Of a DNA stretch of 64,000 nucleotides, positions 23,090 through 54,148 are shown in pieces (the first letter of the stretch is position 1; every line of letters starts with the position of its first letter). A program made the translations under genes and the position numbers. The notes beneath the pieces were generated by a model. That model worked only from the letters and a program-made list of their open reading frames with translations. It made no database searches and was not told the DNA's origin. This DNA is from Parcubacteria group bacterium GW2011_GWB1_42_6 (lineage in GTDB: Bacteria > Patescibacteriota > Minisyncoccia > Portnoybacterales > GWB1-42-6), in contig LCEC01000001.1 of the NCBI GenBank assembly GCA_000997475.1, forward strand, positions 375 to 64,374, read 5' to 3'.

Positions 23090-23284
23090 TTTCCAAATTA
23101 CAATTTCCAATTTCCAAACGATTCCGAATTTTGAGCTTAAGATCAGAATTCGGAAATATTGGAAATTTAAGAATTAGGCATTTCATTAGAAATTGGGATT
23201 TGTAATTTGGAAATTTTCTATTGCATTCTTTTCCAAAAAGCTTATTATGAAAATATAAGCTTTTTTAATTGTTAAAAAATTTTA

Positions 23285-23343: not shown

Positions 23344-23760
23344 ATGAAAATAAATTTCAAAGCGAAGGATTTGGAATTGAACGAAGAGATAAAAAATCTC
23401 GTTGAAAAAAAGCTGGAGACTTTGCGAAGATTTTTTCAAGCGAGCGATCCGGAAGCCGTGCTTGCCGAAGTTGAACTTTCGCGGACCACTCTTCATCATC
23501 AAAACGCTCAAGATCTTTTTCGGGCGGAAATAAATCTAACCATCGCCGGAAAAATGTTTCGGGCGGAATCGGAGCAATCCGATCTCCGCACGGCGCTTGA
23601 AGAAACCCGCGATGATTTGGAAAGAGAGATAAATAAATTTAAAACCAAAAGGGAGACTGTTTTTATTCGAGGCGCGCGCAGCATAAAAAAGGCTTTGAGC
23701 CTTTCGCCCTTAGCGCGTTTCAATAGAAAGTCGCAAAATAAAGAAGATGGTACCGAATAA
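23344..23760 (+). CDS. hpf: Ribosome hibernation promoting factor (HPF/RaiA/YfiA family)
   Basis: [31 protein letters not shown].. matches the HPF N-terminal domain. Confidence 0.75.
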
Positions 23761-24304
23761 AGTGTTTTTCACCAAAGGAGTCGGCGTTCATAAGGAATAC
23801 TTGATGTCTTTTGAGTTGGCGCTCCGCGACGCGGGAATCGCTCCGTTTAATTTGGTGACGGTTTCAAGCATTTACCCTCCGGGTTGCAAAAGAATCAGCC
23901 GCGAAGAAGGATTAAAAATCATAAAACCCGGGCAAATTCTTTTTGTCGTGATGAGCCGCAATGCCACCAATGAACCAAACAGACTTATGGCTTCATCCGT
24001 TGGTTGCGCCATTCCGGCGGATGCCGATCAATATGGTTATCTTTCCGAGCATCATTCTTTTGGAGAAAATGATCAGAAAGCCGGAGATTACGCCGAGGAT
24101 TTGGCGGCTTCAATGCTAGCTTCAATCCTTGGCATCGAATTTAATTCGGATTCAGCTTGGGACGAAAGGGAACAGCTTTACAAAATGGGCGGCAAAATCG
24201 TCAAAACCACCAATGTCACGCAGTCGGCTTTGGGCAATAAAGACGGATTTTGGACAACGGTTTTGGCGGCGGCGGTTTTAGTGATGCCCGAAGACGAAAA
24301 GTGA
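23747..24304 (+). CDS. pdaD: Pyruvoyl-dependent arginine decarboxylase (PdaD, archaeal type)
   Basis: [24 protein letters not shown] with the Ser-Ser self-cleavage site characteristic of PdaD; 185 aa. Confidence 0.75.
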
Positions 24305-24309
24305 GTGTC

Positions 24310-24392
24310 ACCCTACGGAATTACGGATTGGTACGGATATTACGGATTTGATTTATCTGTATAATCCGTATATATCTGTAATTCAGTAGGGT
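24310..24392. repeat. TACGGAT direct/inverted heptamer array (copy 1)
   Basis: ccctacggaattacggattggtacggatattacggatt..taatccgtatat..gtagggtt. Confidence 0.6.
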
Positions 24393-24452
24393 TATGAAAC
24401 CTCGCCATAATTAACAAGAGTTAATTAACTCAAGAAAACCCGGCGGAGGGCC

Positions 24453-25694
24453 GTGATTTTCTTTTGGTTTATGAAGCATTTAACTAAAAGATTGGTTGGG
24501 CCCCGCGTTCTCAACGAACCGATTACCGGCTCGGAAACAACGGCGGAGCTGTTTGAAAAGGCGTTTGGCGCTTATGTCGGGCGCGAAGTAAAAACCGCCT
24601 ACAATATAATCAAGCGTATGGTTGAAAAAGATCACACGGTTGTTTTGGCGATTTCAGGAGCGATGACGCCGGCTGATTTTGTCGTGCCCTGCGTGATTCC
24701 CTTGATTAAATCGGGAATCGTGGATGTCATAACCACTACCGGCGCCAATATCTATCATGATGTGCAGCGTCTTGAAAGCGACGATTGGTTTCAGGTCAAT
24801 CCTAATGAAGGCGATTTGAAATTGCGCAAAGCGGGTTGGACGAGAATTTATGACACCGCTTTTCCCGAAGACGATCTTTGGGCGACGGATAATCTGATTA
24901 TTGATCTTGTCCGCCGGTCGGATTTCGCCCATCAGATGACAACCACGCAATTTCATTATCTTTTAGGCGAGCATCTTTCCAAGCACGGACGGAGAAGATT
25001 CGCCACGGCCGATTTAAACCGCAGCTTGCTGGTTCAAGCTTATCGGCATAAAATTCCGATATTTTGCGGCGCGCCACAAGACGGTTCAATATTTTTGAAT
25101 TTGGCTTTTCTCAAAAGAAAGCTTGGCCCCAAATACAAATTCGGCATTGATATGGAACTTGATATCCATGAATTCGGCGCTTTCCACTATTTCGCCAAAA
25201 ATAAGAGATCAAAAAAATTATCGGTGATAATTTTGGGCGGCGGAGTGCCTAAAAATTATTCTTTGCAGCCCGAGCCGTATTTGACGCAAATTTGCGGAAT
25301 TGACGCGGGTGGCTACGATATGGATGTTCAAATCTCCGACGCTCACGTTCAAAACGGCGGGCTTTCTTCCTGCACGGCCTCCGAAGCTCACACTTGGGGA
25401 AAGACTTCGGAGGCGTGTTTAAAAAATTCCCAATATGTTTTTGCCGATGTCACTTCCACTTTTCCTTTTATCGTTCACGCTTTGATGCAGGAAGAATTGG
25501 AGAAGGAACCTCGCAGACTGATGGAGCATCGCGATGAAGCGATTGAACTTTTGGACAAGGTTCTCAAAAGAAAAACCTTAAGGGAATACTATCTCAAAGG
25601 AAAAGTTAAAAAAGGCGAACTGCATCCGGAAGCTCATTTTGGATCAAACCACGCCGGCCATGTTGAAAAAACGGCCGACAATCCGGAGGCGTAA
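24453..25694 (+). CDS. Deoxyhypusine synthase-like protein (DHS family; possible homospermidine synthase)
   Basis: ..VVLAISGAMTPADF..IVDVITTTGANIYHD.. resembles the DHS NAD-binding core; probable start MKHLTKRL at 24471. Confidence 0.65.
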   Translation: MIFFWFMKHLTKRLVGPRVLNEPITGSETTAELFEKAFGAYVGREVKTAYNIIKRMVEKDHTVVLAISGAMTPADFVVPCVIPLIKSGIVDVITTTGANIYHDVQRLESDDWFQVNPNEGDLKLRKAGWTRIYDTAFPEDDLWATDNLIIDLVRRSDFAHQMTTTQFHYLLGEHLSKHGRRRFATADLNRSLLVQAYRHKIPIFCGAPQDGSIFLNLAFLKRKLGPKYKFGIDMELDIHEFGAFHYFAKNKRSKKLSVIILGGGVPKNYSLQPEPYLTQICGIDAGGYDMDVQISDAHVQNGGLSSCTASEAHTWGKTSEACLKNSQYVFADVTSTFPFIVHALMQEELEKEPRRLMEHRDEAIELLDKVLKRKTLREYYLKGKVKKGELHPEAHFGSNHAGHVEKTADNPEA

Positions 25695-25695
25695 A

Positions 25696-25818
25696 TTATC
25701 GCGGATCTGACGCGGATCTTTGGACTGTGCCGCGGATAAACGCGGATTTTCAACCGCTCGGCGCCGTTGACGGATTTCTATTCGTAATTGGTTTTAAATT
25801 CGTAATTAGTGAGGATTC
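25696..25818. promoter_or_regulatory. CGCGGAT x4 array followed by a tandem ATTCGTAATTRG module upstream of the agmatinase gene
   Basis: cgcggatctgacgcggatc..ccgcggataaacgcggatttt .. attcgtaattggttttaaattcgtaattagtGAGGAttcATG. Confidence 0.5.
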
Positions 25819-26763
25819 ATGAATTTTCTCGACATCAATCAATCTTACAAAAACGCGAAATTCGTTGTCGCGCCTTTTGGCTTTGAAGCCACCACGAGTT
25901 ATGGCGGAGGAACGAATAAAGGCCCGGCGGCAATAATCAAAGCCAGCGCCCAGGTTGAGCTTTTCGACGAAGAACTCTGGCGGGAAATCTACAAAAAGAC
26001 AGGCATTTTCACTTTGCCCGCAATAAAACCCGCCAAAAATATTCCCGGCGCCAAGAAACAGATTTCAAAAATAATCTCAAAAATTCTTGCGGATAAAAAA
26101 ATCCCGATTGTTTTGGGCGGCGAACATAGCATCACGCCTATGATAGTTGAAACATTTTCGGATTTCCTCCTCCCCTCGTCGAGGGGAGGCCATGGAGGGG
26201 TAATTAATCCTAAAATTACCTCCCCCGAACCCCTCCCTAAAAAGGAGGGAAGGAATTCCGCCGCTTCTTTCTCCATCCTCCAATTTGACGCCCACGCCGA
26301 TTTGCGCGATGGCTACTTGGGGCAAAAATATTCCCACGCGGCCGCCATGCGCCGATGTTTGGATAATGAGGGTGTTAATTTAGTCCAAGTCGGGATCAGG
26401 AACATCAGCAACGAAAATGATGAGTTGGTTTTTTGGGAAGCAAACAAAGATCGCATTAAAACTTTCTGGGCCAAAGATAAAAAAAATTGGAAGCTTTCCG
26501 AAATTATGGGTTCTCTTAGGGAAAATGTTTATTTAACCTTTGATGTTGACGCTTTTGATTCTTCGATTATGCCTTCAACCGGCACGCCCGAACCCGGAGG
26601 ATTGGATTGGTACGAAGTGATGGATATTTTGCGCGAAGTCGCCAAAACCAAAAACATCATCGGCATGGATTTTGTGGAGCTCGCTCCCATTAAAACCCTT
26701 CCCGCGCCGGATTTTTTGGTCGCCAAGATGATTTATAAGACGATAGGGTATATTTTAAAATAA
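25819..26763 (+). CDS. Agmatinase/arginase-family ureohydrolase
   Basis: Metal-binding motifs GGEHSIT, FDAHADL, SFDVDAFD; carries an in-frame palindromic insertion at 26166-26252. Confidence 0.75.
   Translation: MNFLDINQSYKNAKFVVAPFGFEATTSYGGGTNKGPAAIIKASAQVELFDEELWREIYKKTGIFTLPAIKPAKNIPGAKKQISKIISKILADKKIPIVLGGEHSITPMIVETFSDFLLPSSRGGHGGVINPKITSPEPLPKKEGRNSAASFSILQFDAHADLRDGYLGQKYSHAAAMRRCLDNEGVNLVQVGIRNISNENDELVFWEANKDRIKTFWAKDKKNWKLSEIMGSLRENVYLTFDVDAFDSSIMPSTGTPEPGGLDWYEVMDILREVAKTKNIIGMDFVELAPIKTLPAPDFLVAKMIYKTIGYILK
26166..26252. repeat. In-frame composite of three GC-rich hairpins inside the agmatinase gene
   Basis: cctcccctc-gtc-gaggggagg, ggaggggtaatt..aattacctcccc, ccctccc-taaaaa-ggaggg; the region encodes SSRGGHGGVINPKITSPEPLPKKEGRN. 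Confidence 0.6.
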
Positions 26764-33728: not shown

Positions 33729-33770
33729 TATAAGTGAGTTATTTACGCTATAGCGTAAATAACTCACTTA
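33729..33770. repeat. Perfect 18-bp-stem palindrome
   Basis: taagtgagttatttacgc tatagc gtaaataactcactta. Confidence 0.8.
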
Positions 33771-33849
33771 TGGAAATTTGAAGGGGACATTCAGAAATAA
33801 TTAAAATAATTAAAAAGGACGGAATTTTTCCGTCCTTTTGCGTTTTTAA

Positions 33850-34435
33850 CCAGATAAACCACCAGCGTAAGCTGGTGAGTGCGTTTAAAAGCGTAGCTAT
33901 TGTACAATAAAATCACCTCGGGAAAGGAGGTGATTTTAAACATGAGCAGAAGCTATCTGCTGTATCAACTCGACCACTGCACTTACCATTGCAGTTATCA
34001 TATCGTGTGGACACCACGATTCCGCGGTAAGGTTTTGGCCGACAACTATATTAAAGCAGAATTAAAAAGAATGTTCAAACAGATTGCCAACTGGAAAGGA
34101 CTAAGGATTTATGCTTGGCACATCGGAGATGAGCACATCCATCTGCACATCTGCATTCCTCCCAAATATTCTATTGCCTACATCATTCAAATTCTCAAGG
34201 GAAAAACTTCTGGCTGGATCAAAAAGAAAACCAAGAAGTTTCCCAAAGGAGTCCTCTGGGCCAGGGGATACTTTGTTTCGACCGTTGGCATCACGGAAAT
34301 CGCCGTGAAAAAATATATTGAAAACCAGCAACACCATCAAATTGAACTTTCTCAATTAAAACTTTGTTAGCCGGCTGGCGTCAGCCAGCAAAAAGATACC
34401 CCCAGCGTTTAAGCTGGGGGTAGTTCATTTTGGCC
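33850..34435 (+). mobile_element. IS200/IS605-family insertion sequence (tnpA only) with left-end and right-end hairpins
   Basis: Y1 HUH transposase ORF flanked by similar hairpins: accagc-gtaa-gctggt at 33861 and cccccagc-gtttaa-gctggggg at 34401. Confidence 0.55.
33942..34370 (+). CDS. tnpA: IS200/IS605 family Y1 (HUH) transposase TnpA
   Basis: YHCSYHIVWTPRFR and HIHLHICIPP (HuH) motifs. Confidence 0.8.
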   Translation: MSRSYLLYQLDHCTYHCSYHIVWTPRFRGKVLADNYIKAELKRMFKQIANWKGLRIYAWHIGDEHIHLHICIPPKYSIAYIIQILKGKTSGWIKKKTKKFPKGVLWARGYFVSTVGITEIAVKKYIENQQHHQIELSQLKLC

Positions 34436-35604: not shown

Positions 35605-36204
35605 GTGGCGTTAAAGCGTCAAACAAAAATGGAAGAATTGAAAATAATCGTTTTTTTGATGGTTGAATTGCTGGCTTTGAGTATGGCTATTTTTTTGGCG
35701 GCAAATTTTTATTTTTGCGTTCGGGCCGGGGGATGCCCTTATGTGCCCACCGGCAAAAAGAGGATTGGCAGGATTATAGAAGAAGCTGATTTGAAAGAGG
35801 GTTCTTTTGTTTTGGAACTGGGTTGCGGCGATGGATACTTTTTGAGGCGGGCGGCGCAAGAACGCAAAATAAAGGGTTTGGGCGTGGATATTCACGGAAT
35901 CGCGCTTTTGAAAGGCGTAATTTTGGCGCGGTTGGCGAAAATAAAAAACATAAAATTTCAAAGAGGTGATCTTTTCGGTTGCGATATTTCGCGGGCGCAG
36001 GTGATTTATCTTTTTTTAATCAGCGGCGTTTTGGAAAAATTGGCGCCCAAATTAAAAAAAGAATGTTCTTCGGGAACGTTAATAATTTCCCACGGTTTCA
36101 AATTGCCGCGATTTGATAAGTATCTTTTCAAAGAATTGGATCATGGCAGTTGGAATATGAGTTATCAGAGAAAAACGTATTTTTACAGATATTATGCCGA
36201 TTAG
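35605..36204 (+). CDS. Membrane-anchored class I SAM-dependent methyltransferase
   Basis: N-terminal TM helix, then VLELGCGDGYFLRRA motif I. Confidence 0.55.
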   Translation: MALKRQTKMEELKIIVFLMVELLALSMAIFLAANFYFCVRAGGCPYVPTGKKRIGRIIEEADLKEGSFVLELGCGDGYFLRRAAQERKIKGLGVDIHGIALLKGVILARLAKIKNIKFQRGDLFGCDISRAQVIYLFLISGVLEKLAPKLKKECSSGTLIISHGFKLPRFDKYLFKELDHGSWNMSYQRKTYFYRYYAD

Positions 36205-43085: not shown

Positions 43086-43652
43086 TTATTTATTAGCTCT
43101 TTCCGTGTATTCTCCGGTTTGCGTGTTGATCCGGATAACATCTCCTTCTTCAATAAACAGCGGAGCGTTAATCATGGCGCCGGTTTCGATTTTCACGGCT
43201 TTGTTGCCGCCTTGGGCGGTGTTGCCTTTGATAGAAGGAGGAGCTTCGATCACTTTAAATTCCATTTTGATCGGCAAATCGATATTGATAATCTTGCTTT
43301 CAAACATCACGACTTCCACGGAGGAATCGGGTTTGAGGAATCTTTTTTGTTCGCCGATGCTTTCTTCGGGCAATTCAAATCGGACGGACGGATTTTCCAT
43401 TTCGCAAAAAACGAATTTGTCGCGATGGTTGTATAGAAATTTGACTTTTTTGTAATCGATTTCGGCTTCCTTAAAATTGTCGGAATTTTGGAAATTGCGG
43501 TTGAGTACTTTGCCGGTGATGAGATTTTTTATTTTGGTCTGGGCGACCGGCTTGCGCTGCTGCATTCTTAAAAAATCAAATTCCAGCACCTCATAGGGCT
43601 GGCCGTCCAAAATAAAAAGAGTTCCGGGTTTGAGTTCGTTGTAGCTGATCAT
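43086..43652 (-). CDS. efp: Elongation factor P
   Basis: MISYNELKPGTLFILDGQPYEVLEFDF.. three-domain EF-P; the ORF-track N-terminal extension is not credible. Confidence 0.85.
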   Translation of the reverse strand: MISYNELKPGTLFILDGQPYEVLEFDFLRMQQRKPVAQTKIKNLITGKVLNRNFQNSDNFKEAEIDYKKVKFLYNHRDKFVFCEMENPSVRFELPEESIGEQKRFLKPDSSVEVVMFESKIINIDLPIKMEFKVIEAPPSIKGNTAQGGNKAVKIETGAMINAPLFIEEGDVIRINTQTGEYTERANK

Positions 43653-43728
43653 GAGTTTGCGCTCCCCCTCTTCCTTGCGCGCTTCATATTTATAGCATAG
43701 AATGAGGTAAATTACAAACCCCCGCACC

Positions 43729-43868
43729 TAATCGGCATAATTGAATTCTCTTTCTTCTCTGTCATCCCCGCGCAGGCGGGGATCCAGATTAATTCAGAAC
43801 CTGGATTCCCCCCGTAGCTGCGGGGCGGGAATGACAAATATAAAGCCAATGCCGATTAGGTGCGGGGG
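43729..43868. mobile_element. MITE-like element A with 19-bp perfect terminal inverted repeats
   Basis: TIR CCCCCGCACCTAATCGGCA / TGCCGATTAGGTGCGGGGG; internal multi-hairpin core. Confidence 0.6.
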
Positions 43869-43876
43869 CAAATCTC

Positions 43877-44959
43877 ATGAATAAGCCCGTCAAAAAAGTC
43901 ATTATCGCGATGTCGGGAGGAGTGGATTCCTCCGTTTCGGCCGCCTTGCTCAAAAAGCAAGGTTTTGAGGTTGAAGGGGTTTTTATGAAATTTTGGTCGG
44001 AACCGGAATCGAAAGACCCCGAATCGGTTTGCCGGCAAAATTTATGCTGTTCCAAAGAGGCTGAAGAAGCGGCGCGGCAAGTGGCCGAGAAACTGGGCAT
44101 CCCGTTTAAGGTTTTGGATTTCAGCCGCGAATTCAAAAAAGAAGTGGTTGATTATTTTTTGGCCGAACAGAAAAAAGGCCGCACGCCCAATCCTTGCGTC
44201 GTTTGCAATAAGAAAATAAAGTTCGGCCTGCTCTTTGATTACGCGCAAAAAATGAAAGCCGACTTTTTGGCTTCGGGCCATTATGTGGATAAGATTAAAT
44301 CAAAAGGCGTTTTTAAAATTAAAAAAGCCAAAGACCAATCCAAAGATCAGACCTATTTCCTTTACCGCTTGAATCAAAAACAATTAAGCAAATTGATTTT
44401 TCCGGCCGGAGATATCTTGAAAGAAGATATTTATAAAATTGCCAAGAAACTAAAACTGCCTTATTGGCGCGCCGAAAGCTTTGATTTGTGTTTTGCCCGC
44501 TCCGGCGCCGAAAGCTTCGTCAAAAAATATTTAAAGCTGGTTCCGGGAGAAATCAGGAATCTTGATGGCGAAATTTTGGGCCGCCACGAAGGTTTGGCGA
44601 TTTATACGATCGGCCAGCGCAAAAGAATTCCCGTTGCCCAAGGGCCTTGGCGGGTGGTTAAAAAAGATGAGAGAAAAAATATTCTTTTTGTGAGCAACGA
44701 TGAAAAAGATTTGTATTCAAGCGAGCTTAAAATGGCGCGGGTGAATTGGACAAGCGGCCAAGCTCCGGAATTTCCTTTGCGGGCGGACGTAAAGATTCGT
44801 TATAAAAGCAAGCCGGCGCGGGCAATGATTGAACCGATTGATAAATCGGCCAAAAAATTAAAGGTAAAATTTTCAAAACCGCAGTTTGCCGCGACTCCCG
44901 GGCAATCGGCAGTTTTTTATAAAGGCAAGGAATTGTTGGGCGGGGGAGTCATCGAATAG
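43877..44959 (+). CDS. mnmA: tRNA-specific 2-thiouridylase MnmA
   Basis: PP-loop IIAMSGGVDSSVSA and conserved catalytic Cys regions. Confidence 0.85.
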   Translation: MNKPVKKVIIAMSGGVDSSVSAALLKKQGFEVEGVFMKFWSEPESKDPESVCRQNLCCSKEAEEAARQVAEKLGIPFKVLDFSREFKKEVVDYFLAEQKKGRTPNPCVVCNKKIKFGLLFDYAQKMKADFLASGHYVDKIKSKGVFKIKKAKDQSKDQTYFLYRLNQKQLSKLIFPAGDILKEDIYKIAKKLKLPYWRAESFDLCFARSGAESFVKKYLKLVPGEIRNLDGEILGRHEGLAIYTIGQRKRIPVAQGPWRVVKKDERKNILFVSNDEKDLYSSELKMARVNWTSGQAPEFPLRADVKIRYKSKPARAMIEPIDKSAKKLKVKFSKPQFAATPGQSAVFYKGKELLGGGVIE

Positions 44960-45032
44960 CGAATCGCTAATAGCTGATCGCGAATCGGAAAGAAAAAATC
45001 AAAATCGCGAATTTAAAATAATCCAGGCAAAG

Positions 45033-45066
45033 AAAAAAGCCTCCAAATTTTTGGGGCTTTTTAAAA
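45033..45066 (+). terminator. Putative terminator after mnmA
   Basis: Imperfect hairpin aagcc(t)cc/ggggctt followed by a T-run. Confidence 0.4.
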
Positions 45067-45653
45067 TAATCGCGGGAAGGCCGGGGCCCAAAGCGTAATT
45101 TCGGAAATACCCGATTTTGACAGCTAAGCCGCTGTCTTGTCAGCCAATCCGTAACGGAAAGGCAAGCTTTGGGGATTGGGTTTGTGCCGTCCACGGTTTA
45201 TGTTTTTACTCGCTCTATTTTTGGATAGAGTCTCCGGTTGCTTCCCGCGACAGGAAGAACTTTCTTGCATCATGCCTCTGGCAAGGAATGATTTTTTGAT
45301 ATTAGCAAAATAATTTTTATTTGTCAATAAAAAAAACAAGGCTCTCGTTTTGTGAGAGCCTTGGTGCAGAAAGAAGTTTGTCTGGAAAAATTGCTTGCTC
45401 TGACGCATATAATGGGAGGGATAAGGAAAAAGAGAAATAATGAAGATAAGCGCTGATGAATCAGACAAACTCCTTTTTATAAAGAACTGATTGAAAGGGA
45501 AATCGGTATGGAACCGGGAAATTAAGGCTGCGCTCTTTCCCTTTCAATTATATTTTATGCTTTTTTAAAATTTTGTAAATAGAATTATCCACAGGCAATA
45601 TTCTTTTGCGAATTTTTTTTAAAATATAATTATTATAAATATTTTGCCATCTC

Positions 45654-45682
45654 TTGACAAGGTGATCAATAGGGAGTATACT
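45654..45682 (+). promoter_or_regulatory. Near-consensus sigma70 promoter
   Basis: TTGACA, 17-nt spacer, TATACT. Confidence 0.55.
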
Positions 45683-45688
45683 GGAACC

Positions 45689-46270
45689 ATAGGCTAAGGA
45701 TGGAGTCTGAATTTAACCGAAAAGGGCTTGTTTGAGCCAACGGCAGACCCCCTAGCTCGCACATTTATATAAAAATATCAATTAGATCTTCGCCCCGCCT
45801 GCCGGCCGAACCCATCAATTTTATTTAGATGGCTGCGCGACCAGGCATGTGTGGCGAATTCGGGTTTCTTTTTTCGGACAGGTTGCGGGACAGGCATCCC
45901 TTTTAATGACAGCATTGCGATCGTCATTATTACTGACCGAAAATGAACCCGGAAAAATTGGAAGAGGAGAGGAATCCCGCCCGCAGACCTCGCCCCGATG
46001 AAAATATCATCGACGATCCGTCATTGGACGCCCCTCTCCCTTCCGCCTAAAAAGTCCCCGTCATTTTCGTAAGTAAGGGTTGCCGTACCCGATAAGAGTT
46101 TTATTGAAAGAAGCAAAAACCCTCTTATCGGTAAAATAGCAACACCGTTTCAAAATCAGCGACGACGGGGCAAAAAAGAGGAGCCAGTGGATTAAATACC
46201 CATTGGCTCCTCGGAATTATTGTTTCTTAAGACACCGAAGCCCCCCAAAAACACGAGGGGCTTCTTTTTT
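45689..46270 (+). ncRNA. Candidate structured non-coding RNA (~580 nt, class unknown)
   Basis: Bounded by a consensus promoter and a strong terminator (gaagcccc/ggggcttc plus T6 at 46237-46270). Multiple stable hairpins, including a 10-bp stem at ccgataagag..ctcttatcgg. No ORF of 60 aa or more on either strand. Confidence 0.35.
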
Positions 46271-46767
46271 ATCTTTTATGATTTTAAAAACGACGCAATC
46301 CATCACACTCAAGAGTAAAACAGGTTGTGCTCTGATTATTTATTATTGCGGAACAAAATAAAAAGAGCGCTTCGTTTGAAAGCGCCCTCATTTTGATGCA
46401 GGCGAGAAAAAATTTTATCTAAGAATTCTCGAGTTCTCTCAGATATTTTTTCCTCGTCGGGAATTATCGTGTTAGACGACCGCCTTGTTTTCGCATTAGC
46501 GAATGTTTCGAGTTCTTAAGCTCGATCTTTTTAGGCGTTGATAACACTAACTCCCTTTATAACTTTTGGAAAATTTGGATTACCCGTCCTTCCCTTTTGG
46601 ACTTGGGAAGAGTTGGGGTGATGCTCGACTCATACTGCCTCCGTGGAATGGAGTTTTCTTGAGTGAGCGGAAGGTACTGACCGATCGAAAGCCGATAAAA
46701 ACAGCCTTCGATCATATATAGAGATTATAAAATAACGATGAGCTTGTCAAGTCTTTTCAATTTTACA

Positions 46768-46883
46768 CACACCTAGTCAGGATATTTGAATTTAATTTGG
46801 ATAATAAACAAGTTTACTCCCAATGGCTTGTTTGTCTTCGAAGGATTCTTTGAATAAAAAACAATCCTGATTAGGCGCGGGGG
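46768..46883. mobile_element. MITE-like element B, copy 1
   Basis: (c)cacctagtcagga ... tcctgattaggcgcggggg imperfect TIRs; interior is the reverse complement of copy 2. Confidence 0.55.
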
Positions 46884-46937
46884 CAAGGGAAAAGAAATCC
46901 GATTGAACTTTTGAATTTGCCGTGCTAAGATTTTTAT

Positions 46938-48809
46938 ATGACGGCCAAGGAATTACGCGGTAAATATCTTGAATTTTTCAAAGCTCGGGGGCACGCGGTT
47001 ATCCCTTCGGCTTCTTTGGTTCCGCAAAACGATCCCACAGTGCTTTTTACCACCGCCGGAATGCAACCTTTAGTGCCGTATCTTTTGGGCGAAAAGCATC
47101 CCCAAGGAAAGCGGCTTGTCAATGTTCAAAAATGCCTCCGCACCAACGATATTGATGAAGTGGGTGATGCCACTCACGGAACTTTTTTTGAAATGCTTGG
47201 CAATTGGTCTTTGGGCGATTATTTTAAAAAAGAATCGTTGAGTTGGAGCTATGAATTTTTAACTTCGCCTGAATGGTTGGGATTGGATAAAAACCGTTTG
47301 GCTGTTTCGGTTTTTGCAGGGGATGACGACGCGCCATTTGATGAAGAAGCTTTTGAAATTTGGAGATCTTTGGGTATTTCTGAAAAAAGAATCACCCGGC
47401 TTCCCAAAGAAAACAATTGGTGGGGGCCGGCCGGAGAAACCGGGCCATGCGGACCGGATTCGGAAATATTTTATTGGACCGGCGCTCCGGATCAGGTTCC
47501 GGAAAGTTTCAACGATGATAACGATCTTTGGGTGGAAATCTGGAATAACGTTTTTATGCAATATAATAAAAACATAAAAGGCTCCTTTGAACCGCTTGCG
47601 CAAAAAAATGTTGACACGGGTTTGGGGCTGGAAAGGGCGCTGGTTACTCTCAATGGCTACGACGAGATTTATAAGATTGACGTTATCCGGCCGATTATTG
47701 AAAAGATAGAAGAAATTTCAGGGAAGAAATACGATGAAACTATCTCTGAAATCCCCCTTAATCCCCCTTTTACAAAGGGGGGAAATCAGAAGGCTATGAG
47801 AATCGTGGCGGATCATTTGAAAGCGAGCGCTTTTTTAATCGCCGATGGAGTTGAGCCTTCCAATACGGAGCGAGGCTATGTTTTGCGCCGGCTGATTCGG
47901 CGCGCGGTGAGATATGGCCGGCAATTGGGAATTGAAGGAATTTTTTGTTTTAAAATCGCGCGGGTCGCGATTGAAATATACAAAGATATTTATCCGGAAC
48001 TTTCGCGGGAAGAAAATTCAATCGAAGAGCAATTAACGAAAGAAGAAGAAAAATTTGCCAAGACTCTTGAATCCGGATTGAAACAATTTGAAAATGTAAA
48101 AATCAAAATTAAAAATGACAGCGCAAAATCTGGAATTATTTCCGGGGAGATCGCTTTTAATTTGTATCAGACTTACGGTTTTCCCGTCGAGCTGACAAAA
48201 GAATTGGCCAAAGAAGCCGGATTGGAAGTTGACGAGGAAAAATTTAAGGATGAAATGAAGCGCCATCAAGAACTTTCCCGCGCCGGAGCCGAACAAAAAT
48301 TCAAAGGCGGTTTAGCCGATCATTCGGAACAAACCGTCAAATACCACACGGCGGCGCATTTGCTTTTGGCGGCTTTGCGTCAAACTTTGGGCGGAGACGT
48401 AAATCAGCGTGGCGCCAATATAACAAGCGAACGATTGAGATTTGATTTTTCGCATCCGCAAAAAATGACTCCGGAACAAATTAAAGAAGTTGAGGATTTG
48501 GTGAATGAAAAAATCAAAGAAGACTTGCCGGTTGCTTGCGAAGAGATGGCCTTGGATGAAGCGAAAGCAAAGGGAGCGACTGGAATTTTCGATTCAAAAT
48601 ACGGGGAGAGGGTGAAAGTTTATACAATTGGAAGCCCTTCGACAGGTCCTTCGACAGGCTCAGGGCAATGCTCGGGGTCCGCGGCTTTCAGCCGCGAGAT
48701 TTGCGGCGGGCCGCATGTTGAAAGAACGGGAGTTTTGGGAAATTTTAAGATCGTTAAAGAAGAATCGTGTTCGGCCGGAGTGAGAAGAATCAAAGCGGTG
48801 CTGAAATAA
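46938..48809 (+). CDS. alaS: Alanine--tRNA ligase, short form (catalytic, tRNA-recognition and editing domains; no C-Ala domain)
   Basis: N-terminal class II core, editing-domain HTAAHLL motif; 623 aa; contains two in-frame insertions. Confidence 0.85.
   Translation: MTAKELRGKYLEFFKARGHAVIPSASLVPQNDPTVLFTTAGMQPLVPYLLGEKHPQGKRLVNVQKCLRTNDIDEVGDATHGTFFEMLGNWSLGDYFKKESLSWSYEFLTSPEWLGLDKNRLAVSVFAGDDDAPFDEEAFEIWRSLGISEKRITRLPKENNWWGPAGETGPCGPDSEIFYWTGAPDQVPESFNDDNDLWVEIWNNVFMQYNKNIKGSFEPLAQKNVDTGLGLERALVTLNGYDEIYKIDVIRPIIEKIEEISGKKYDETISEIPLNPPFTKGGNQKAMRIVADHLKASAFLIADGVEPSNTERGYVLRRLIRRAVRYGRQLGIEGIFCFKIARVAIEIYKDIYPELSREENSIEEQLTKEEEKFAKTLESGLKQFENVKIKIKNDSAKSGIISGEIAFNLYQTYGFPVELTKELAKEAGLEVDEEKFKDEMKRHQELSRAGAEQKFKGGLADHSEQTVKYHTAAHLLLAALRQTLGGDVNQRGANITSERLRFDFSHPQKMTPEQIKEVEDLVNEKIKEDLPVACEEMALDEAKAKGATGIFDSKYGERVKVYTIGSPSTGPSTGSGQCSGSAAFSREICGGPHVERTGVLGNFKIVKEESCSAGVRRIKAVLK
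47752..47786. repeat. In-frame GC-rich palindromic insertion within alaS
   Basis: tccccctta atccccctttt acaaa ggggggaaat encodes PLNPPFTKGGN. Confidence 0.6.
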
Positions 48810-48856
48810 CAGTTAATGCAAAATGCAAATTTCAAAACGCAGATTACTCTCTTTTT

Positions 48857-48935
48857 GTCATTCCCGCGCAGGCGGGAATCTAGATTAATTCAGAATTAGA
48901 CTTGGGTCTGGATCCCCGTTTTCACGGGGATGACA
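48857..48935. repeat. TIR-less copy of the MITE-A core (GTCAT..ATGAC multi-hairpin unit)
   Basis: gtcattcccgcgcaggcgggaatctagattaattcagaa.. is about 80% identical to 43761-43837. Confidence 0.55.
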
Positions 48936-48973
48936 TCTATGGTTGGGTTTATTTTAATTTTAAAATTTATTTT

Positions 48974-49417
48974 ATGTCTGACATCAAAAAACCCGGCGTG
49001 GGCTTTGGGGTGATGATTGAAAAGAAAGGTAAAATCCTTTTGGGCCGGCGCCATAGCGATCCCAAGAAAGCTTCCAGCGAACTTCACGGCGAAGGCGCTT
49101 GGACGATGCCCGGAGGCAAATTGCATTTTGGCGAAACTCCCGAGGAAGGGGCTTGCCGGGAAGTTTTGGAAGAAATCGGCGTGAAAATAAATTCAAGAAG
49201 GCTCAAGCTCATAAGCGTTTCCAATGATATGGTGAGCGACGCGCATTTTATCACTTTGGGATTCAGATATCCGAGTTTTAAGGGCAGTCCCAAAGTGATG
49301 GAGCCGGATGAAATCGTTGAATGGCGCTGGTTTAATCCCAAGGCATTGCCCAGCCCTATGTATTTTCCCAGCGAACGGGTGTTCAAGCATTTTAAGAGAG
49401 GCAAAATATACGGATAG
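48974..49417 (+). CDS. NUDIX hydrolase
   Basis: Nudix box GGKLHFGETPEEGACREVLEEIGV. Confidence 0.75.
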   Translation: MSDIKKPGVGFGVMIEKKGKILLGRRHSDPKKASSELHGEGAWTMPGGKLHFGETPEEGACREVLEEIGVKINSRRLKLISVSNDMVSDAHFITLGFRYPSFKGSPKVMEPDEIVEWRWFNPKALPSPMYFPSERVFKHFKRGKIYG

Positions 49418-49530
49418 GTGGATATCTTTATTGCGGAGAAGCGTTTTTTTGGATATAATTATTTAAGAAAATATCGGGCGCGAAAGAATCCTTCGTTTTG
49501 CCGCGCGCGCTTTTGAGTTGTAAATAAACT

Positions 49531-49647
49531 CCCGCACCTAGTCAGGATTGTTTTTTATTCAAAGAATCCTTCAAAGACAAACAAGCCATTGGGAGTAAAC
49601 TTGTTTATTATCCAAATTAAATTCAAATATCCTGACTAGGCGCGGGG
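49531..49647. mobile_element. MITE-like element B, copy 2 (inverted relative to copy 1)
   Basis: cccgcacctagtcagga ... tcctgactaggcgcgggg. Confidence 0.55.
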
Positions 49648-49659
49648 ATAAAATAAACT

Positions 49660-51537
49660 ATGGCGAAATTGATTTATTTAAAACCGAATCAAGACATAAC
49701 TTCGATAATCGGCTATCTTTGGCAAACCAAAGAACCTGAAATCGCGCTCGTTGCTCCAAAAAATTCGGTTTTATTGGAGAATCGCATTGCGCTTAAAATT
49801 CTCAAAAGAGAAGCGGACAACTGCGAAAAAGAGATAATTTTTGTCATCAAGGATTCGGAAAGCCGCGAAGCGGTGGAAGATCTGGGCTTTAAAACCAAAG
49901 TTTCCTGGCCGAAAAGCGAAATAAGCGAAGAAGAATCCGAAGAGGAAGAAAAAGTTATCAAAGAAATGCCGGCTGAAGATTACCAATTGATGATTGGCAA
50001 TCAGCTGAAGATAAAGCACGGAGCGGCTTCCAAGATCCGCTTTAGCGACATCAAAAAACCCGGGAATAAGAAAAAAGATTCGGATGAAAAAATTAAGAAA
50101 ATAAAATCAGCCGAAGAAAGCGAAGATGATTTTATTTTGGGACATTTGGCGGAACCGGAAAAAGAATTTTCTTTGCCCATTCCCCAAGAAACCGATGATT
50201 TTAAGGAGAAAGCGGAGACTTTCCTTAAAATAAAAAATTTCGCTCCGCGCGAAGAAATTAAAGAAGAAACGGTTCAAGAAGAATCTGTTCCTTTTGAAAA
50301 AATATTTGGCCGGGAAGAAAAGGAGATATTCATTAAGCCGCAAATTCATAACTTTTCCAAGAAGAAATTTTCCGGTTTCAAATTTCCTGATTTTTCTTCA
50401 AAGATCGTCATGCTTTTTGTCGGTTCGGCCGTGATTGTGGCGGGATTGGTTTTTTATTTTGTTTTGCCCAAAGCCGAAATCGAGGTTGTTCCAAAGGTGG
50501 AGGCGACCGAACAAGATTTAAACGTTGTGGCCGACAAGGGATCGGCGTTTATTGATTTGGGGAAAGGCGTAATTCCGGCGCAAGTGATTCGTTTTGATAA
50601 AAAATCATCTCGGGAATTCAACACTACGGGTGAAAGCCAAGCCAACGAGAAAGCTCGAGGCGTTATGACGGTTTATAATGAATACAGCTCTTCGCCGCAG
50701 GGCTTGGTTGAAAAAACGCGTTTTGTTTCGGCGGATGGAAAAGTTTTTCGGACCGTCAAATCCATCACTGTTCCGGGAGCTAAAATCAGCGAAGGGAAAG
50801 TGATCGCGAGTTCAATAGATGTTGAGGTGGCGGCCGACGAAGCGGGCGAATCGTATAATATTTCTCCGGGAAAATTTTTAATCCCCGGTTTTCAGGGATC
50901 GCCAAAATACGAAGGTTTCTACGGCATAACCAAAGACGCCATGTACGGCGGCACGACGGGAATTTCTAAAATTGTTTCGGCGGATGATGTCGAAATGGCC
51001 AAAAATGAAATCTGGGCGGATCTTCAAAAAGATTTGGAGAGCGACATAAAAACGCAAACGCCCGAAGGGTTGAAACTTTTGCCGGAAGCCAAAAAATTGG
51101 AAATCAGCTCATTCGATCCATCCGTTAAGGCGGGCGGCCGGGCTGATAAATTCACGATGACGGTCAAAGGAACCGGAATTCTCATTTTTTTTGACGAGCG
51201 CGACATTATTGAATTAGCCAGAGAAAATTCGGAAATTGAATCTTTGGAAAGCAAAGATTATTCCGATAAATTGTCGGAAGTTGTTTATTCCGAAGTTAGC
51301 GCTGATTTTGAAAAAAGCAAAATAAGTTTTAAAGCAAAGGTGGGGGAAAAATTGGTTTGGAAAATCAATGATTCCATTCTTAAGAGATTGATCGCCGGCC
51401 GGAATGAAACTGAAATCAGAACGATTTTGAATGACCGCGAAGAAGTGTTGAGCGCCAGGATTCTTTTCTGGCCTTTCTGGGTGGATGCCGTGCCTGATAA
51501 CCCGGACAGAGTGAATGTGAGCGTTAAAACGGATTGA
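49660..51537 (+). CDS. Hypothetical single-pass membrane protein with acidic linker
   Basis: 625 aa; central TM IVMLFVGSAVIVAGLVFYFVL; no recognisable motifs. Confidence 0.4.
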   Translation: MAKLIYLKPNQDITSIIGYLWQTKEPEIALVAPKNSVLLENRIALKILKREADNCEKEIIFVIKDSESREAVEDLGFKTKVSWPKSEISEEESEEEEKVIKEMPAEDYQLMIGNQLKIKHGAASKIRFSDIKKPGNKKKDSDEKIKKIKSAEESEDDFILGHLAEPEKEFSLPIPQETDDFKEKAETFLKIKNFAPREEIKEETVQEESVPFEKIFGREEKEIFIKPQIHNFSKKKFSGFKFPDFSSKIVMLFVGSAVIVAGLVFYFVLPKAEIEVVPKVEATEQDLNVVADKGSAFIDLGKGVIPAQVIRFDKKSSREFNTTGESQANEKARGVMTVYNEYSSSPQGLVEKTRFVSADGKVFRTVKSITVPGAKISEGKVIASSIDVEVAADEAGESYNISPGKFLIPGFQGSPKYEGFYGITKDAMYGGTTGISKIVSADDVEMAKNEIWADLQKDLESDIKTQTPEGLKLLPEAKKLEISSFDPSVKAGGRADKFTMTVKGTGILIFFDERDIIELARENSEIESLESKDYSDKLSEVVYSEVSADFEKSKISFKAKVGEKLVWKINDSILKRLIAGRNETEIRTILNDREEVLSARILFWPFWVDAVPDNPDRVNVSVKTD

Positions 51538-51851: not shown

Positions 51852-51960
51852 TTTTCAACCAACCGTGCTAAGCAATCCTTCTTCTTCGATGAAGAGGTTC
51901 CGCGGAAGCAAAGCGGAGCTGACGGTGCGTTTAGCGCGTTTTGTATTGGTTTTTTTCCTC

Positions 51961-52065
51961 ACTAATTACGAATAAATTTACTCCAATTACGAATAATTAT
52001 AGATTAATTGCGAGATGATGCGCTTCATTCGTAATTAGTTCTTAATTCGTAATTGGCGAGGATTC
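51961..52065. promoter_or_regulatory. TTCGTAATT palindromic module upstream of rpmJ
   Basis: Two copies of YYAATTACGAAT, a spacer, two copies of ATTCGTAATTRG, then GAGGATTC ATG. Confidence 0.5.
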
Positions 52066-52179
52066 ATGAAAGTTCGCGCTTCGGTTAAAAAAATATGCCA
52101 GAAATGCAAACTCGTGCGCCGAAAAGGCAAATTGCGGGTTATTTGCGCGATCAAAAAACATAATCAAAGACAAGGATGA
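52066..52179 (+). CDS. rpmJ: 50S ribosomal protein L36
   Basis: [37 protein letters not shown]; TGA stop. Confidence 0.8.
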
Positions 52180-52189
52180 AATCATTTTA

Positions 52190-52262
52190 ACATTTTAGCA
52201 TTTTAGCATTTTAGCATTTGAATTATTGAATTTTGTTAATATGCTAACATGTTGATATGTTA
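52190..52262. repeat. ATTTTAGC x3 array plus inverted TGCTAACATG motifs upstream of rpsM
   Basis: cattttagcattttagcattttagcatttgaatt..tatgctaacatgttgatatg. Confidence 0.5.
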
Positions 52263-52274
52263 AAATGACTAGCC

Positions 52275-54049: not shown

Positions 54050-54148
54050 ACCAATTACGAATAAATCCAATCCAATTACGAATTAAAGCCGGCTACGAAT
54101 AGTTTTATATTCGTAATTGGTTCCAATTCGTAATTAGCGAGGAAAAAT
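54050..54148. promoter_or_regulatory. TTCGTAATT palindromic module upstream of rpoA
   Basis: ccaattacgaat x2 ... attcgtaattgg ttccaattcgtaattagcGAGGAaaaatATG. Confidence 0.5.

What the first reader, a model, noticed from the sequence alone, without database searches (positions are those of the whole stretch)
43729..43868. 140-bp MITE-like element with 19-bp perfect terminal inverted repeats between efp and mnmA
TIRs CCCCCGCACCTAATCGGCA / TGCCGATTAGGTGCGGGGG enclose a multi-hairpin core (gtcatccccgcgcaggcggggatc..cagattaattcagaacctgg..ccccgtagctgcgggg..atgacaa). There is no coding capacity. The TIR is related to that of the element pair flanking alaS (CCCGCACCTAGTCAGGA). The ORF-track N-terminal extension of efp reads into this element.
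Basis: seen in the sequence. Interest (0 to 1): 0.55.

Follow-up and report, generated by a model that had tools for sequence, protein, structure and literature searches.

The report
Small mobile element carrying nested hairpin repeat
The sequence between efp and mnmA in this Parcubacteria genome is a real 150-bp non-coding transposon (MITE), and its "core" is a second, separate hairpin repeat of the widespread Neisseria NTS/dRS3 type nested inside it; this is an ordinary kind of selfish DNA in an unusual host.

Summary
The element spans 43719-43868 (150 bp, not 140) and its perfect terminal inverted repeats are 20 nt.

It belongs to a small family with the ends CCCCGCRCCTARTCRGSAT. Three copies lie in the window: A, B (46765-46883) and C (49529-49648). 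A fourth, D, lies in the cell-division cluster of the same species. A fifth, E, is on a contig that looks non-CPR.

Mobility is shown directly. A relative whose FtsI is 86% identical has the empty site ...CCAGGTAAATTCC... where D sits as ...AGATAAA[D]TAAATTCC..., a 4-bp TAAA duplication. Element A is flanked by CAAA/CAAA, and relatives L017 and L034 read ...GCAAAT... uninterrupted at that point.

A's "multi-hairpin core" (43760-43836) is a separate repeat: a pair of inverted GTCAT-hairpins. It occurs alone at 48856-48936 and matches the published Ssn-related motif. One hairpin matches the Neisseria NTS consensus at 27 of 28 positions.

No transposase with matching ends turned up in the window, in 185,579 species genomes, or in the metagenome, viral or plasmid collections.

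Verdict: a new MITE family, a new member of a known kind, with a nested NTS/REPIN-like insertion. Interest is modest.

The parts
43719..43868 (.). Element A: 150-bp composite non-autonomous TIR element
   Evidence: 20-nt perfect TIRs. Folds as one long hairpin, -81.4 kcal/mol, z = -8.7. Identical in 12 assemblies, cut at the contig start in three.
43719..43738 (+). Left TIR, CCCCCGCACCTAATCGGCAT
43849..43868 (-). Right TIR, exact reverse complement of the left TIR
43715..43718 (.). Left copy of the 4-bp target-site duplication CAAA
   Evidence: Read. Relatives L017 and L034 have a single ...GCAAAT... here.
43869..43872 (.). Right copy of the target-site duplication CAAA
43760..43836 (.). Nested NTS/SRM-type hairpin pair (TGTCAT...ATGACA), REPIN-like
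   Evidence: Left hairpin 43760-43787 matches the published SRM pattern and the NTS consensus at 25 of 28 positions. The right hairpin 43802-43836 is a variant that also occurs alone in L011 3094-3129 at 97% identity. The first 39 nt are 92% identical to the free-standing copy at 48857.
46765..46883 (+). Element B: sister MITE upstream of alaS, with a decayed left TIR
49529..49648 (-). Element C: sister MITE between NUDIX and the glxA-like gene. It is 97.3% identical to B over 110 nt, in inverted orientation, and flanked by TAAA/TAAA.
48856..48936 (.). Free-standing NTS/SRM hairpin pair in the alaS-NUDIX spacer, with no TIRs around it
   Evidence: Two SRM matches, 48856-48883(+) and 48908-48935(-); the first matches the NTS consensus at 27 of 28 positions. 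Sub-threshold Rfam hit to WsnRNA46.
43675..43703 (.). Conserved promoter-like motif just left of the insertion point. On the + strand it reads TTGCGC-17 nt-TAGAAT. On the - strand it reads TGCTATAAA, an extended -10 facing efp.
   Evidence: The core motif TTTATAGCAT is conserved in L017, L029, L033 and L034, with the neighbouring bases varying, while the surrounding spacer has diverged. Promoter function is inferred, not shown.
43086..43652 (-). efp (left neighbour)
   Evidence: Pfam EFP_N, EFP and Elong-fact-P_C
43877..44959 (+). mnmA (right neighbour). The start codon lies 8 nt after the right TIR.
   Evidence: Pfam tRNA_Me_trans and its M and C domains

Best explanation
Element A is a composite of two unrelated selfish repeats.

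Outer shell. The shell (43719-43759 plus 43837-43868) is a miniature inverted-repeat transposable element. It belongs to a small family defined by an 18-20-nt TIR, CCCC(C)GCRCCTARTCRGSAT. The family inserts at A/T-rich YAAA sites and duplicates 4 bp. This points to mobilisation in trans by a cut-and-paste DDE-type transposase that recognises the TIRs; that enzyme is inferred and not identified.

Inner repeat. The 77-bp middle (43760-43836) is a pair of inverted GTCAT-hairpins of the NTS/dRS3/SRM class. In Neisseria these are the hairpins cleaved as ssDNA by the GIY-YIG nuclease SsnA, and they have also been described as REPINs. The pair most likely entered a pre-existing shell, or replaced its middle.

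Location. The composite lies at the divergent efp/mnmA promoter region. It is about 15 nt right of a conserved -10-like motif and 8 nt left of the mnmA start codon. If it is transcribed with mnmA, it would form a 20-bp-stemmed hairpin in the 5' leader, and the G-run of the right TIR, the only Shine-Dalgarno-like sequence there, would be paired.

What is shown and what is inferred. Shown: the family, its ends, the duplication, the empty sites and the independent existence of the inner repeat. Inferred: the type of transposase, the order of nesting, and any effect on expression.
For: Family and ends.
- The window holds three TIR elements, with 7 TIR matches against 0.49 expected. B and C are 97.3% identical over 110 nt and inverted relative to each other.
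- A shares only the ends and about 10 subterminal nt with B and C.
- D lies in contig L011, between ftsL and ftsI, and is 87.6% identical to B. L011 belongs to Parcubacteria GW2011_GWA1_42_7, which has the same MnmA and AlaS proteins as the window's genome, GW2011_GWB1_42_6.
- E (L015/L035) has the same 15-nt ends around an unrelated core. It sits at the 3' end of a response-regulator/histidine-kinase gene on a contig that encodes Hdr/FlpD-type redox proteins.

Transposition.
- L031 (FtsI 86% identical) reads ...GTTTCCAGGTAAATTCCCAGAAGCGATG.... L011 reads ...GTTTCCAGATAAA[119-nt D]TAAATTCCCCGAAGCGATG....
- A is flanked by CAAA on both sides. L017 and L034 carry ...TTGCAAAT... uninterrupted, after the same conserved TTTATAGCATAGAAT motif.
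- The syntenic relatives L017 and L029 have 55-bp and 119-bp efp-mnmA spacers, against 224 bp in the window, and neither has any TIR match at up to 2 mismatches.
- A 4-mer matches by chance with probability of about 0.007.

Nested repeat.
- The published SRM pattern hits the window three times against 0.13 expected. All three hits are in A's core and in the TIR-less copy at 48856-48936.
- The NTS consensus and SsnA biology come from PMC11893778. The REPIN reading of the same Neisseria sequence comes from bioRxiv 10.1101/2021.07.10.451892.
- In PLSDB, all but three weak hits (E = 5, positions 9-40, chance-level) fall inside A's core; these are multi-copy intergenic matches on Coxiella, Azospirillum, Neisseria, Legionella and sphingomonad replicons. 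The TIRs have no convincing hit.
Against: - Copy number is low: four copies in this population and one elsewhere. Three of the four sit within 6 kb.
- No autonomous element or DDE transposase with these ends was found.
- B has no duplication and a decayed left TIR. E has only 3 matching flank bases. The terminal C-run is 4 or 5 long, so the boundaries are slightly ambiguous.
- No A-type shell without the hairpin pair was seen, so the direction of nesting is inferred.
- The rest of the source genome could not be searched. The pair scan of the species-genome collection returned nothing, not even A or C, so the species is apparently not in it; the metagenome scan returned C but not A.
Confidence: 0.8

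Rival explanations
1. A is one unitary MITE whose own core happens to be multi-hairpin.
For: The whole 150 bp folds as a single nested hairpin. No A-type shell lacking the hairpins was found.
Against: The same hairpin pair stands alone, without TIRs, at 48856-48936. The variant right hairpin stands alone in L011. The sister elements B, C and D carry a different core. The hairpins belong to a repeat class found across Proteobacteria, whereas the TIR is not found there.
Confidence: 0.1
2. The element is primarily a selected cis-regulatory RNA structure, or an sRNA, for mnmA or efp rather than mobile DNA.
For: It lies between a conserved -10-like motif and the mnmA start codon. The predicted RNA is very stable and would pair the G-run 8 nt upstream of the ATG. 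A related hairpin pair gives a weak Rfam hit to a Wolbachia sRNA: RF02625, 28.9 bits, E = 0.01.
Against: It is absent from syntenic relatives that keep the same gene pair. Sister copies occur in both orientations and in unrelated contexts, including right after a stop codon. Rfam gives no match to A at gathering threshold or at E <= 1. Target-site duplications show that it arrived by insertion.
Confidence: 0.06
3. The whole element is mobilised by a Y1 (HUH) transposase, that is, it is a REPIN or an IS200/IS605-type PATE. The driver could be the IS200-like TnpA at 33942-34370 or a RAYT elsewhere in the genome.
For: A Y1_Tnp gene lies 9 kb away (PF01797, E = 3.7e-31). The core is a pair of inverted REP-like hairpins.
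Against: By established knowledge of the IS200/IS605 family, Y1 elements make no target duplication and have no TIRs. Here a 4-bp duplication with an empty site is seen. The hairpins flanking the TnpA gene (CCAGCGTAAGCTGG type) are unrelated to both the TIR and the GTCAT hairpins. This rival may still hold for the inner hairpin pair alone.
Confidence: 0.03
4. The repeat is a chance palindrome or an assembly artefact.
For: None beyond its small size.
Against: No shuffle reproduces the TIR counts. The sequence is identical in 12 independent assemblies.
Confidence: 0.01

Closest known systems
Bacterial MITEs in general, and Neisseria Correia elements (CREE) in particular
   Same: About 100-150 bp, non-coding, with perfect or near-perfect TIRs. 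They sit in intergenic or promoter regions next to housekeeping genes, carry a short A/T-rich target duplication, and fold into one long hairpin when transcribed. For Correia elements (my own knowledge) that hairpin is an RNase III substrate and the ends can supply promoter elements.
   Different: The TIR sequence is unrelated: the Correia end is TATAGTGGATTAACAAAAATCAGGACAA, as quoted. The duplication here is 4 bp (YAAA), not TA. Copy number is in single digits, not hundreds. The host is a Parcubacterium.
NTS / dRS3 / Ssn-related motifs (SRM), the targets of the GIY-YIG ssDNA nuclease SsnA (PMC11893778); the same Neisseria sequence is described as a REPIN with a Group 2 RAYT (bioRxiv 10.1101/2021.07.10.451892)
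   Same: This applies to the inner 77 bp only. TGTCATTCCCGCGCAGGCGGGAATCTAG at 48856 matches CGTCATTCCCGCGMAVGCGGGAATCYRG at 27 of 28 positions. A's copy differs by a compensated T>C / A>G pair. The hairpins come in inverted pairs less than 130 bp apart, and they match the SRM pattern.
   Different: No ssn (cd10448) or RAYT gene is in the window. The host is Patescibacteria, which the Ssn paper does not mention. Here the pair lies inside another mobile element.
IS1380-family insertion sequences, the prokaryotic relatives of piggyBac (PMC5718144), as a candidate source of the transposase
   Same: From my own knowledge of the ISfinder family table: ends that begin with CC and 4-5-bp A/T-rich duplications. 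These fit CCCCGC... ends and a TAAA/CAAA duplication.
   Different: This is only a lead. No IS1380-type transposase or TIR match was found, and other families that make 4-bp duplications (IS5 group, IS701) are not excluded.
Tn3-derived inverted-repeat miniature elements (TIMEs, PMC4133298)
   Same: Non-autonomous TIR elements that insert into AT-rich DNA and can have variable or mosaic interiors.
   Different: TIMEs have 38-bp Tn3-type TIRs and 5-6-bp duplications. Here the TIRs are 18-20 nt with an unrelated sequence, and the duplication is 4 bp.

Membership tests
MITE (non-autonomous TIR DNA transposon) | Terminal inverted repeats conserved among copies | tested here: met
   A has 20 of 20 positions paired, D 19 of 19, C 18 of 19 and E 15 of 15. 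The consensus is shared by all copies.
MITE (non-autonomous TIR DNA transposon) | Small size and no coding capacity | tested here: met
   The elements are 108-150 bp. The longest internal ORFs are 45 and 47 aa and are made up of repeat sequence.
MITE (non-autonomous TIR DNA transposon) | Target-site duplication of fixed length | tested here: met
   D has TAAA, with an empty site that holds a single TAAA. A has CAAA and C has TAAA. E matches at only 3 bp and B has none.
MITE (non-autonomous TIR DNA transposon) | Several copies at unrelated loci, with presence/absence between relatives | tested here: met
   There are five loci. A, B and C are absent from the syntenic relatives L017 and L029. D is absent from L031.
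MITE (non-autonomous TIR DNA transposon) | An autonomous element with the same TIRs that encodes a transposase | tested here: inconclusive
   None was found in the window (Pfam on about 50 ORFs, plus the annotations). The paired-TIR scan of 185,579 species genomes gave 0 hits and the single-TIR scan gave 8 chance hits. The metagenome, viral and plasmid collections also gave nothing. The source genome outside the window was not searchable.
Ssn-related motif (SRM/NTS) hairpins | Match to HGTCWYN(0-2)YYVSBRHN(0-5)WNVSBRGN(0-2)RNCYNB and a hairpin fold | tested here: met
   Three matches against 0.13 in shuffles. Matches to the NTS consensus are 27 of 28 and 25 of 28.
Ssn-related motif (SRM/NTS) hairpins | A cd10448 GIY-YIG (ssn) gene in the genome, typically flanked by the motif | tested here: inconclusive
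   A six-frame motif scan and tblastn with GIY-YIG sequences, two of them generic and all three written from memory, found nothing in the window or the fetched loci.
REPIN/RAYT system | Two REP hairpins in inverted orientation less than 130 bp apart | tested here: met
   43760-43836 and 48856-48936.
REPIN/RAYT system | A cognate RAYT gene flanked by the same REPs | tested here: inconclusive
   The only Y1 gene in the window (33942-34370) is flanked by unrelated hairpins and looks like an ordinary IS200 TnpA.
Correia element (Neisseria CREE) | 26-bp Correia TIR sequence and a TA duplication | tested here: not met
   The TIR sequence is unrelated and the duplication is 4 bp. The element works like a Correia element but is not a member.
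IS200/IS605-derived PATE | No TIRs, no target duplication, subterminal hairpins | tested here: not met
   The element has perfect TIRs and a 4-bp duplication.
IS1380-derived MITE | TIRs matching those of an IS1380-family insertion sequence | not tested
   No library of insertion-sequence ends was available. The resemblance (CC ends, 4-5-bp duplication) is recalled from memory.

The most novel reading that the evidence does not exclude
The TIR family is mobilised by a transposase not yet catalogued, one shared between a Parcubacterium and an unrelated anaerobe. The composite A shows a MITE acting as a vehicle that moves Ssn/RAYT-type hairpins to new sites. Its landing in the efp/mnmA promoter region has been co-opted, with the 20-bp stem sequestering the mnmA ribosome-binding G-run. 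This would also imply a working Ssn- or RAYT-type ssDNA system in a CPR bacterium that depends on DNA uptake.
Probability: 0.1. Interest if true: 0.5.

Novelty: new member of a known kind. Interest (0 to 1): 0.3.

Why it matters
Mobile DNA in streamlined CPR/Patescibacteria genomes is little documented. Among the twelve papers listed by a full-text search combining MITE and CPR terms, none contained 'miniature inverted-repeat'. Here a MITE family is shown, with nucleotide-level empty sites, to have been recently active beside essential translation and cell-division genes (efp, mnmA, alaS, ftsI).

The nested hairpins extend the known range of the Neisseria NTS/SRM repeat class to Parcubacteria with almost no sequence change. 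That makes it testable whether Ssn nucleases or RAYTs operate in CPR bacteria.

In practical terms, contigs of several assemblies break at or just upstream of element A, in two cases inside it, so annotators and binners should expect fragmentation and spurious N-terminal extensions here. None of this changes the understanding of how MITEs work.

Tried and rejected
- Rfam: no hit at gathering threshold in the whole window. At E <= 1 on 43600-49800 there was only a weak WsnRNA46 hit on the free hairpin pair and a snoRNA chance hit. No tRNA or tmRNA was found.
- Terminator reading: there is no T-run after the hairpin on the strand of the upstream genes.
- Inversion between B and C to explain B's missing duplication: rejected, because C has its own matching flanks and B's left flank does not match the reverse complement of C's inner flank.
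- A 14-nt match of the TIR interior at 36191-36204 lies at the end of a methyltransferase ORF, has no CCCCGC terminus and gives E = 0.01-0.03. I treated it as chance.
- Paired-TIR scans: viral collection 0 hits, species genomes 0 hits.
- Single-TIR 19-mer scans: 8 genome hits and 1 viral hit. None has an inverted partner. Most are on high-GC contigs, and the three I inspected (L025, L026, L038) lie inside coding sequence, so all were treated as chance.
- PLSDB BLAST with A and with C: no convincing hit to the TIR; the only matches reaching it (Macrococcus plasmids, positions 9-40, E = 5) are chance-level.
- Literature search for six 12-mers of the TIR: only a chance primer hit.
- GIY-YIG search in the window: negative.
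- A closer empty site for A: the 91%-EF-P relative (L032/L033) has a different gene next to efp and is uninformative beyond the conserved motif.
- Look-up of the window genome's own FtsI contig (P0157) failed.

Full report
**What is in the sequence.** The inverted repeat is real, but it starts ten bases earlier than reported. The arms are 43719-43738 and 43849-43868. They are 20 nt long, perfectly complementary and 110 nt apart, so the element is 150 bp. With up to three mismatches the TIR occurs three times in the window against 0.02 expected. The degenerate 15-mer CCCGCRCCTARTCRG occurs seven times against 0.49 expected.

The neighbours are efp (43086-43652, minus strand) and mnmA (43877-44959, plus strand) by Pfam. 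The long 213-aa version of the efp ORF starts at a GTG inside the left TIR. Almost all of the 120 best EF-P homologues are 186-212 aa, most of them 186-191, so that extension is spurious.

The window comes from Parcubacteria group bacterium GW2011_GWB1_42_6, a Rifle groundwater genome. Element A is identical in twelve independent assemblies of this population, cut at the contig start in three of them. Several contigs break at or just upstream of it, and two break inside it, which is typical of a repeat.

**A family of elements.** Two more elements in the window share the ends. B is at 46765-46883, just upstream of the alaS promoter region. C is at 49529-49648, between a NUDIX gene and a glxA-like gene. 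B and C are 97.3% identical over 110 nt and lie in opposite orientations. A shares only the TIR and about ten subterminal bases on each side with them.

A paired-TIR scan of the metagenome collection returned five contigs:
- L012 is C itself.
- L011, L013 and L014 carry a fourth element, D. It is 87.6% identical to B and lies between ftsL and ftsI in the cell-division cluster.
- L015 carries a fifth element, E. It has the same 15-nt ends around an unrelated core, and it overlaps the last codons of a response-regulator/histidine-kinase gene.

L011 is the FtsI contig of GW2011_GWA1_42_7, whose MnmA and AlaS proteins are identical to those of the window genome. D is therefore a fourth copy in the same population. 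E's 15.8-kb contig encodes Hdr-, FlpD- and ferredoxin-type proteins. From my own knowledge that is not a Parcubacterial gene set, so the ends probably occur in another phylum too.

**Proof of insertion.** A relative with 86% FtsI identity (L031) reads ...GCTGTTTCCAGGTAAATTCCCAGAAGCGATGAAAAG.... The D-bearing contig reads ...GCCGTTTCCAGATAAA[CCCCGCG...119 nt...CGCGGGG]TAAATTCCCCGAAGCGATGAAAAG.... This is a clean empty site with a 4-bp duplication, TAAA, which includes the ftsL stop codon.

Element A is flanked by CAAA on both sides. The relative L017 (MnmA 65% identical, same T4CP-efp-mnmA-alaS-glxA order) and the relative L034 (EF-P 88% identical) both keep the conserved TTTATAGCATAGAAT-type motif, followed by ...TTGCAAAT... 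without interruption. In L017 the similarity continues past that point: CAAATATCA against the window's CAAATCTCA.

L017 and the Portnoybacteria contig L029 have efp-mnmA spacers of 55 and 119 bp, against 224 bp in the window, and neither contains any TIR match at up to 2 mismatches. C is flanked by TAAA/TAAA if its ends are read as five positions. E has TAA/TAA. B has no duplication, and its left TIR has decayed. A chance 4-mer match has a probability of about 0.007. The family is therefore a genuine transposon family with a 4-bp duplication and a preference for YAAA targets.

**The core is a different repeat.** The middle of A (43760-43836, TGTCAT...ATGACA) is two inverted hairpins. The same arrangement stands alone, without TIRs, in the alaS-NUDIX spacer at 48856-48936. 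A's unusual right hairpin occurs alone in L011 at 97% identity.

The sequence at 48856-48883 matches the Neisseria Transformation Sequence consensus CGTCATTCCCGCGMAVGCGGGAATCYRG at 27 of 28 positions. A's left hairpin differs by one compensated base pair. The published degenerate Ssn-related motif hits the window exactly three times, all in these two elements, against 0.13 expected (consensus and pattern from PMC11893778).

That paper shows the hairpins are cleaved as single-stranded DNA by the small GIY-YIG nuclease SsnA and are associated with ssn genes across phyla. A preprint treats the same Neisseria sequence as a REPIN paired with a Group 2 RAYT.

In PLSDB, apart from three weak chance-level hits reaching positions 9-40 (E = 5), only A's core finds matches. 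These are multi-copy intergenic hits on Coxiella, Azospirillum, Neisseria, Legionella and sphingomonad replicons. Rfam gives a weak hit of the free pair to the Wolbachia sRNA WsnRNA46. A Portnoybacteria relative has a different GTCAT...ATGAC pair right after alaS.

A is therefore a composite: a MITE shell of about 73 bp with a 77-bp NTS/REPIN-like pair inside. The order of events is inferred, because no A-type shell without the pair was seen.

**What moves it.** Nothing in the window qualifies. Pfam on about fifty ORFs, plus the precomputed annotations, showed housekeeping and cell-envelope genes and a single mobile-element gene. That gene is an IS200-like Y1 transposase at 33942-34370, flanked by hairpins of its own. 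By established knowledge, Y1 enzymes make no target duplication and do not use TIRs, so it cannot account for the outer element.

- The paired-TIR scan of one genome from each of 185,579 species found nothing.
- The 19-nt single-TIR scan found eight isolated hits, most on high-GC contigs, with no inverted partner.
- The viral collection gave one hit inside an ORF.
- PLSDB and the literature gave no convincing match to the TIR.

No GIY-YIG gene was detected in the window. A DDE transposase acting in trans is the standard inference. The CC-initial ends and the 4-bp A/T-rich duplication recall IS1380-type elements, the prokaryotic kin of piggyBac, but that resemblance is from memory and was not tested.

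**Possible side effects (inferred).** The insertion point lies 15 nt to the right of a motif conserved across four relatives. On the plus strand the motif reads TTGCGC-17 nt-TAGAAT, facing mnmA. On the minus strand it reads TGCTATAAA, an extended -10 facing efp.

If the plus-strand reading is right, A forms most of the mnmA leader. The predicted RNA is a single hairpin closed by the 20-bp TIR stem (-82.5 kcal/mol, z = -8.6). That stem would pair the G-run that lies 8 nt before the ATG. This resembles what is known for Correia elements, but no expression data were available.

**Verdict.** The size and coordinates need correcting, the "core" is a nested, separately known kind of repeat, and the autonomous partner remains unidentified. 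This is a new family of a known kind, and the interest is modest.

Noticed in passing
window 33730-34430: An IS200/IS605-type Y1 transposase gene lies at 33942-34370(+) (PF01797, E = 3.7e-31). It is flanked by similar hairpins, CACCAGCGTAAGCTGGTG on the 5' side and CCCCCAGCGTTTAAGCTGGGGG on the 3' side. A perfect 42-bp palindrome at 33730-33771 lies just upstream. The protein cluster has 25 members on many contigs.
   Followed up: partly
window 44960-46764: About 1.8 kb between mnmA and alaS has no annotated gene; the GenBank protein accessions of mnmA and alaS are consecutive. The only ORF is 45124-45468(-), 114 aa, with no Pfam match. A comparable gap of 1-2.5 kb sits in the same place in relatives L017 and L029. 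It contains strong promoter-like and terminator-like sites, and Rfam finds nothing convincing.
   Followed up: partly
window 48810-49660, compared with L017 7848-8031 and L029 8736-8848: The NUDIX gene (48902-49417) is missing from both syntenic relatives, where alaS is followed directly by the next gene. In the window it is bounded by the free NTS-type hairpin pair on the left and by MITE copy C on the right, which suggests a small acquired segment.
   Followed up: partly
window 43653-43672, compared with L001 7264-7400: The leader just upstream of the efp start differs between strains of the same population. Most assemblies carry about 100 nt rich in GTGAAC/TTCAC repeats where the window has about 20 nt (GAGTTTGCGCTCCCCCTCTTC). 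L005 and L033 show a third arrangement.
   Followed up: no
L029 8736-8848: The Portnoybacteria relative has a GTCAT...ATGAC hairpin pair with different stems (GTCATTCCGAGCGAAGG...) right after alaS, the same position as the window's free pair. This repeat class therefore seems to recur at this locus across lineages.
   Followed up: no
window 51960-52070, 54050-54135, 52182-52268, 23088-23215: There are other intergenic inverted or tandem repeats. AATTACGAAT-type inverted repeats lie around infA/rpmJ and before rpoA. A TTTTAGCA tandem forms a 35-nt inverted repeat before rpsM. There is also an AATTTCCAA inverted repeat. None is related to the TIR family.
   Followed up: no
window 1819-3068: UDP-GlcNAc 2-epimerase is split into two overlapping ORFs, 1819-2322 and 2319-3068, which match the N-terminal and C-terminal parts of PF02350. 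This may be a frameshift or a pseudogene.
   Followed up: no
window 23747-26763: A pyruvoyl arginine decarboxylase, a deoxyhypusine-synthase homologue and an arginase-family (agmatinase-like) gene lie side by side in a genome that also has EF-P. The pairing is curious and was not examined further.
   Followed up: no
L035 11081-11188: MITE copy E lies on a contig that encodes Hdr (CCG-domain), FlpD and multiple ferredoxin-domain proteins, which is probably not a CPR organism. It is present in three independent assemblies. This suggests that the TIR family, or its transposase, crosses phyla.
   Followed up: partly
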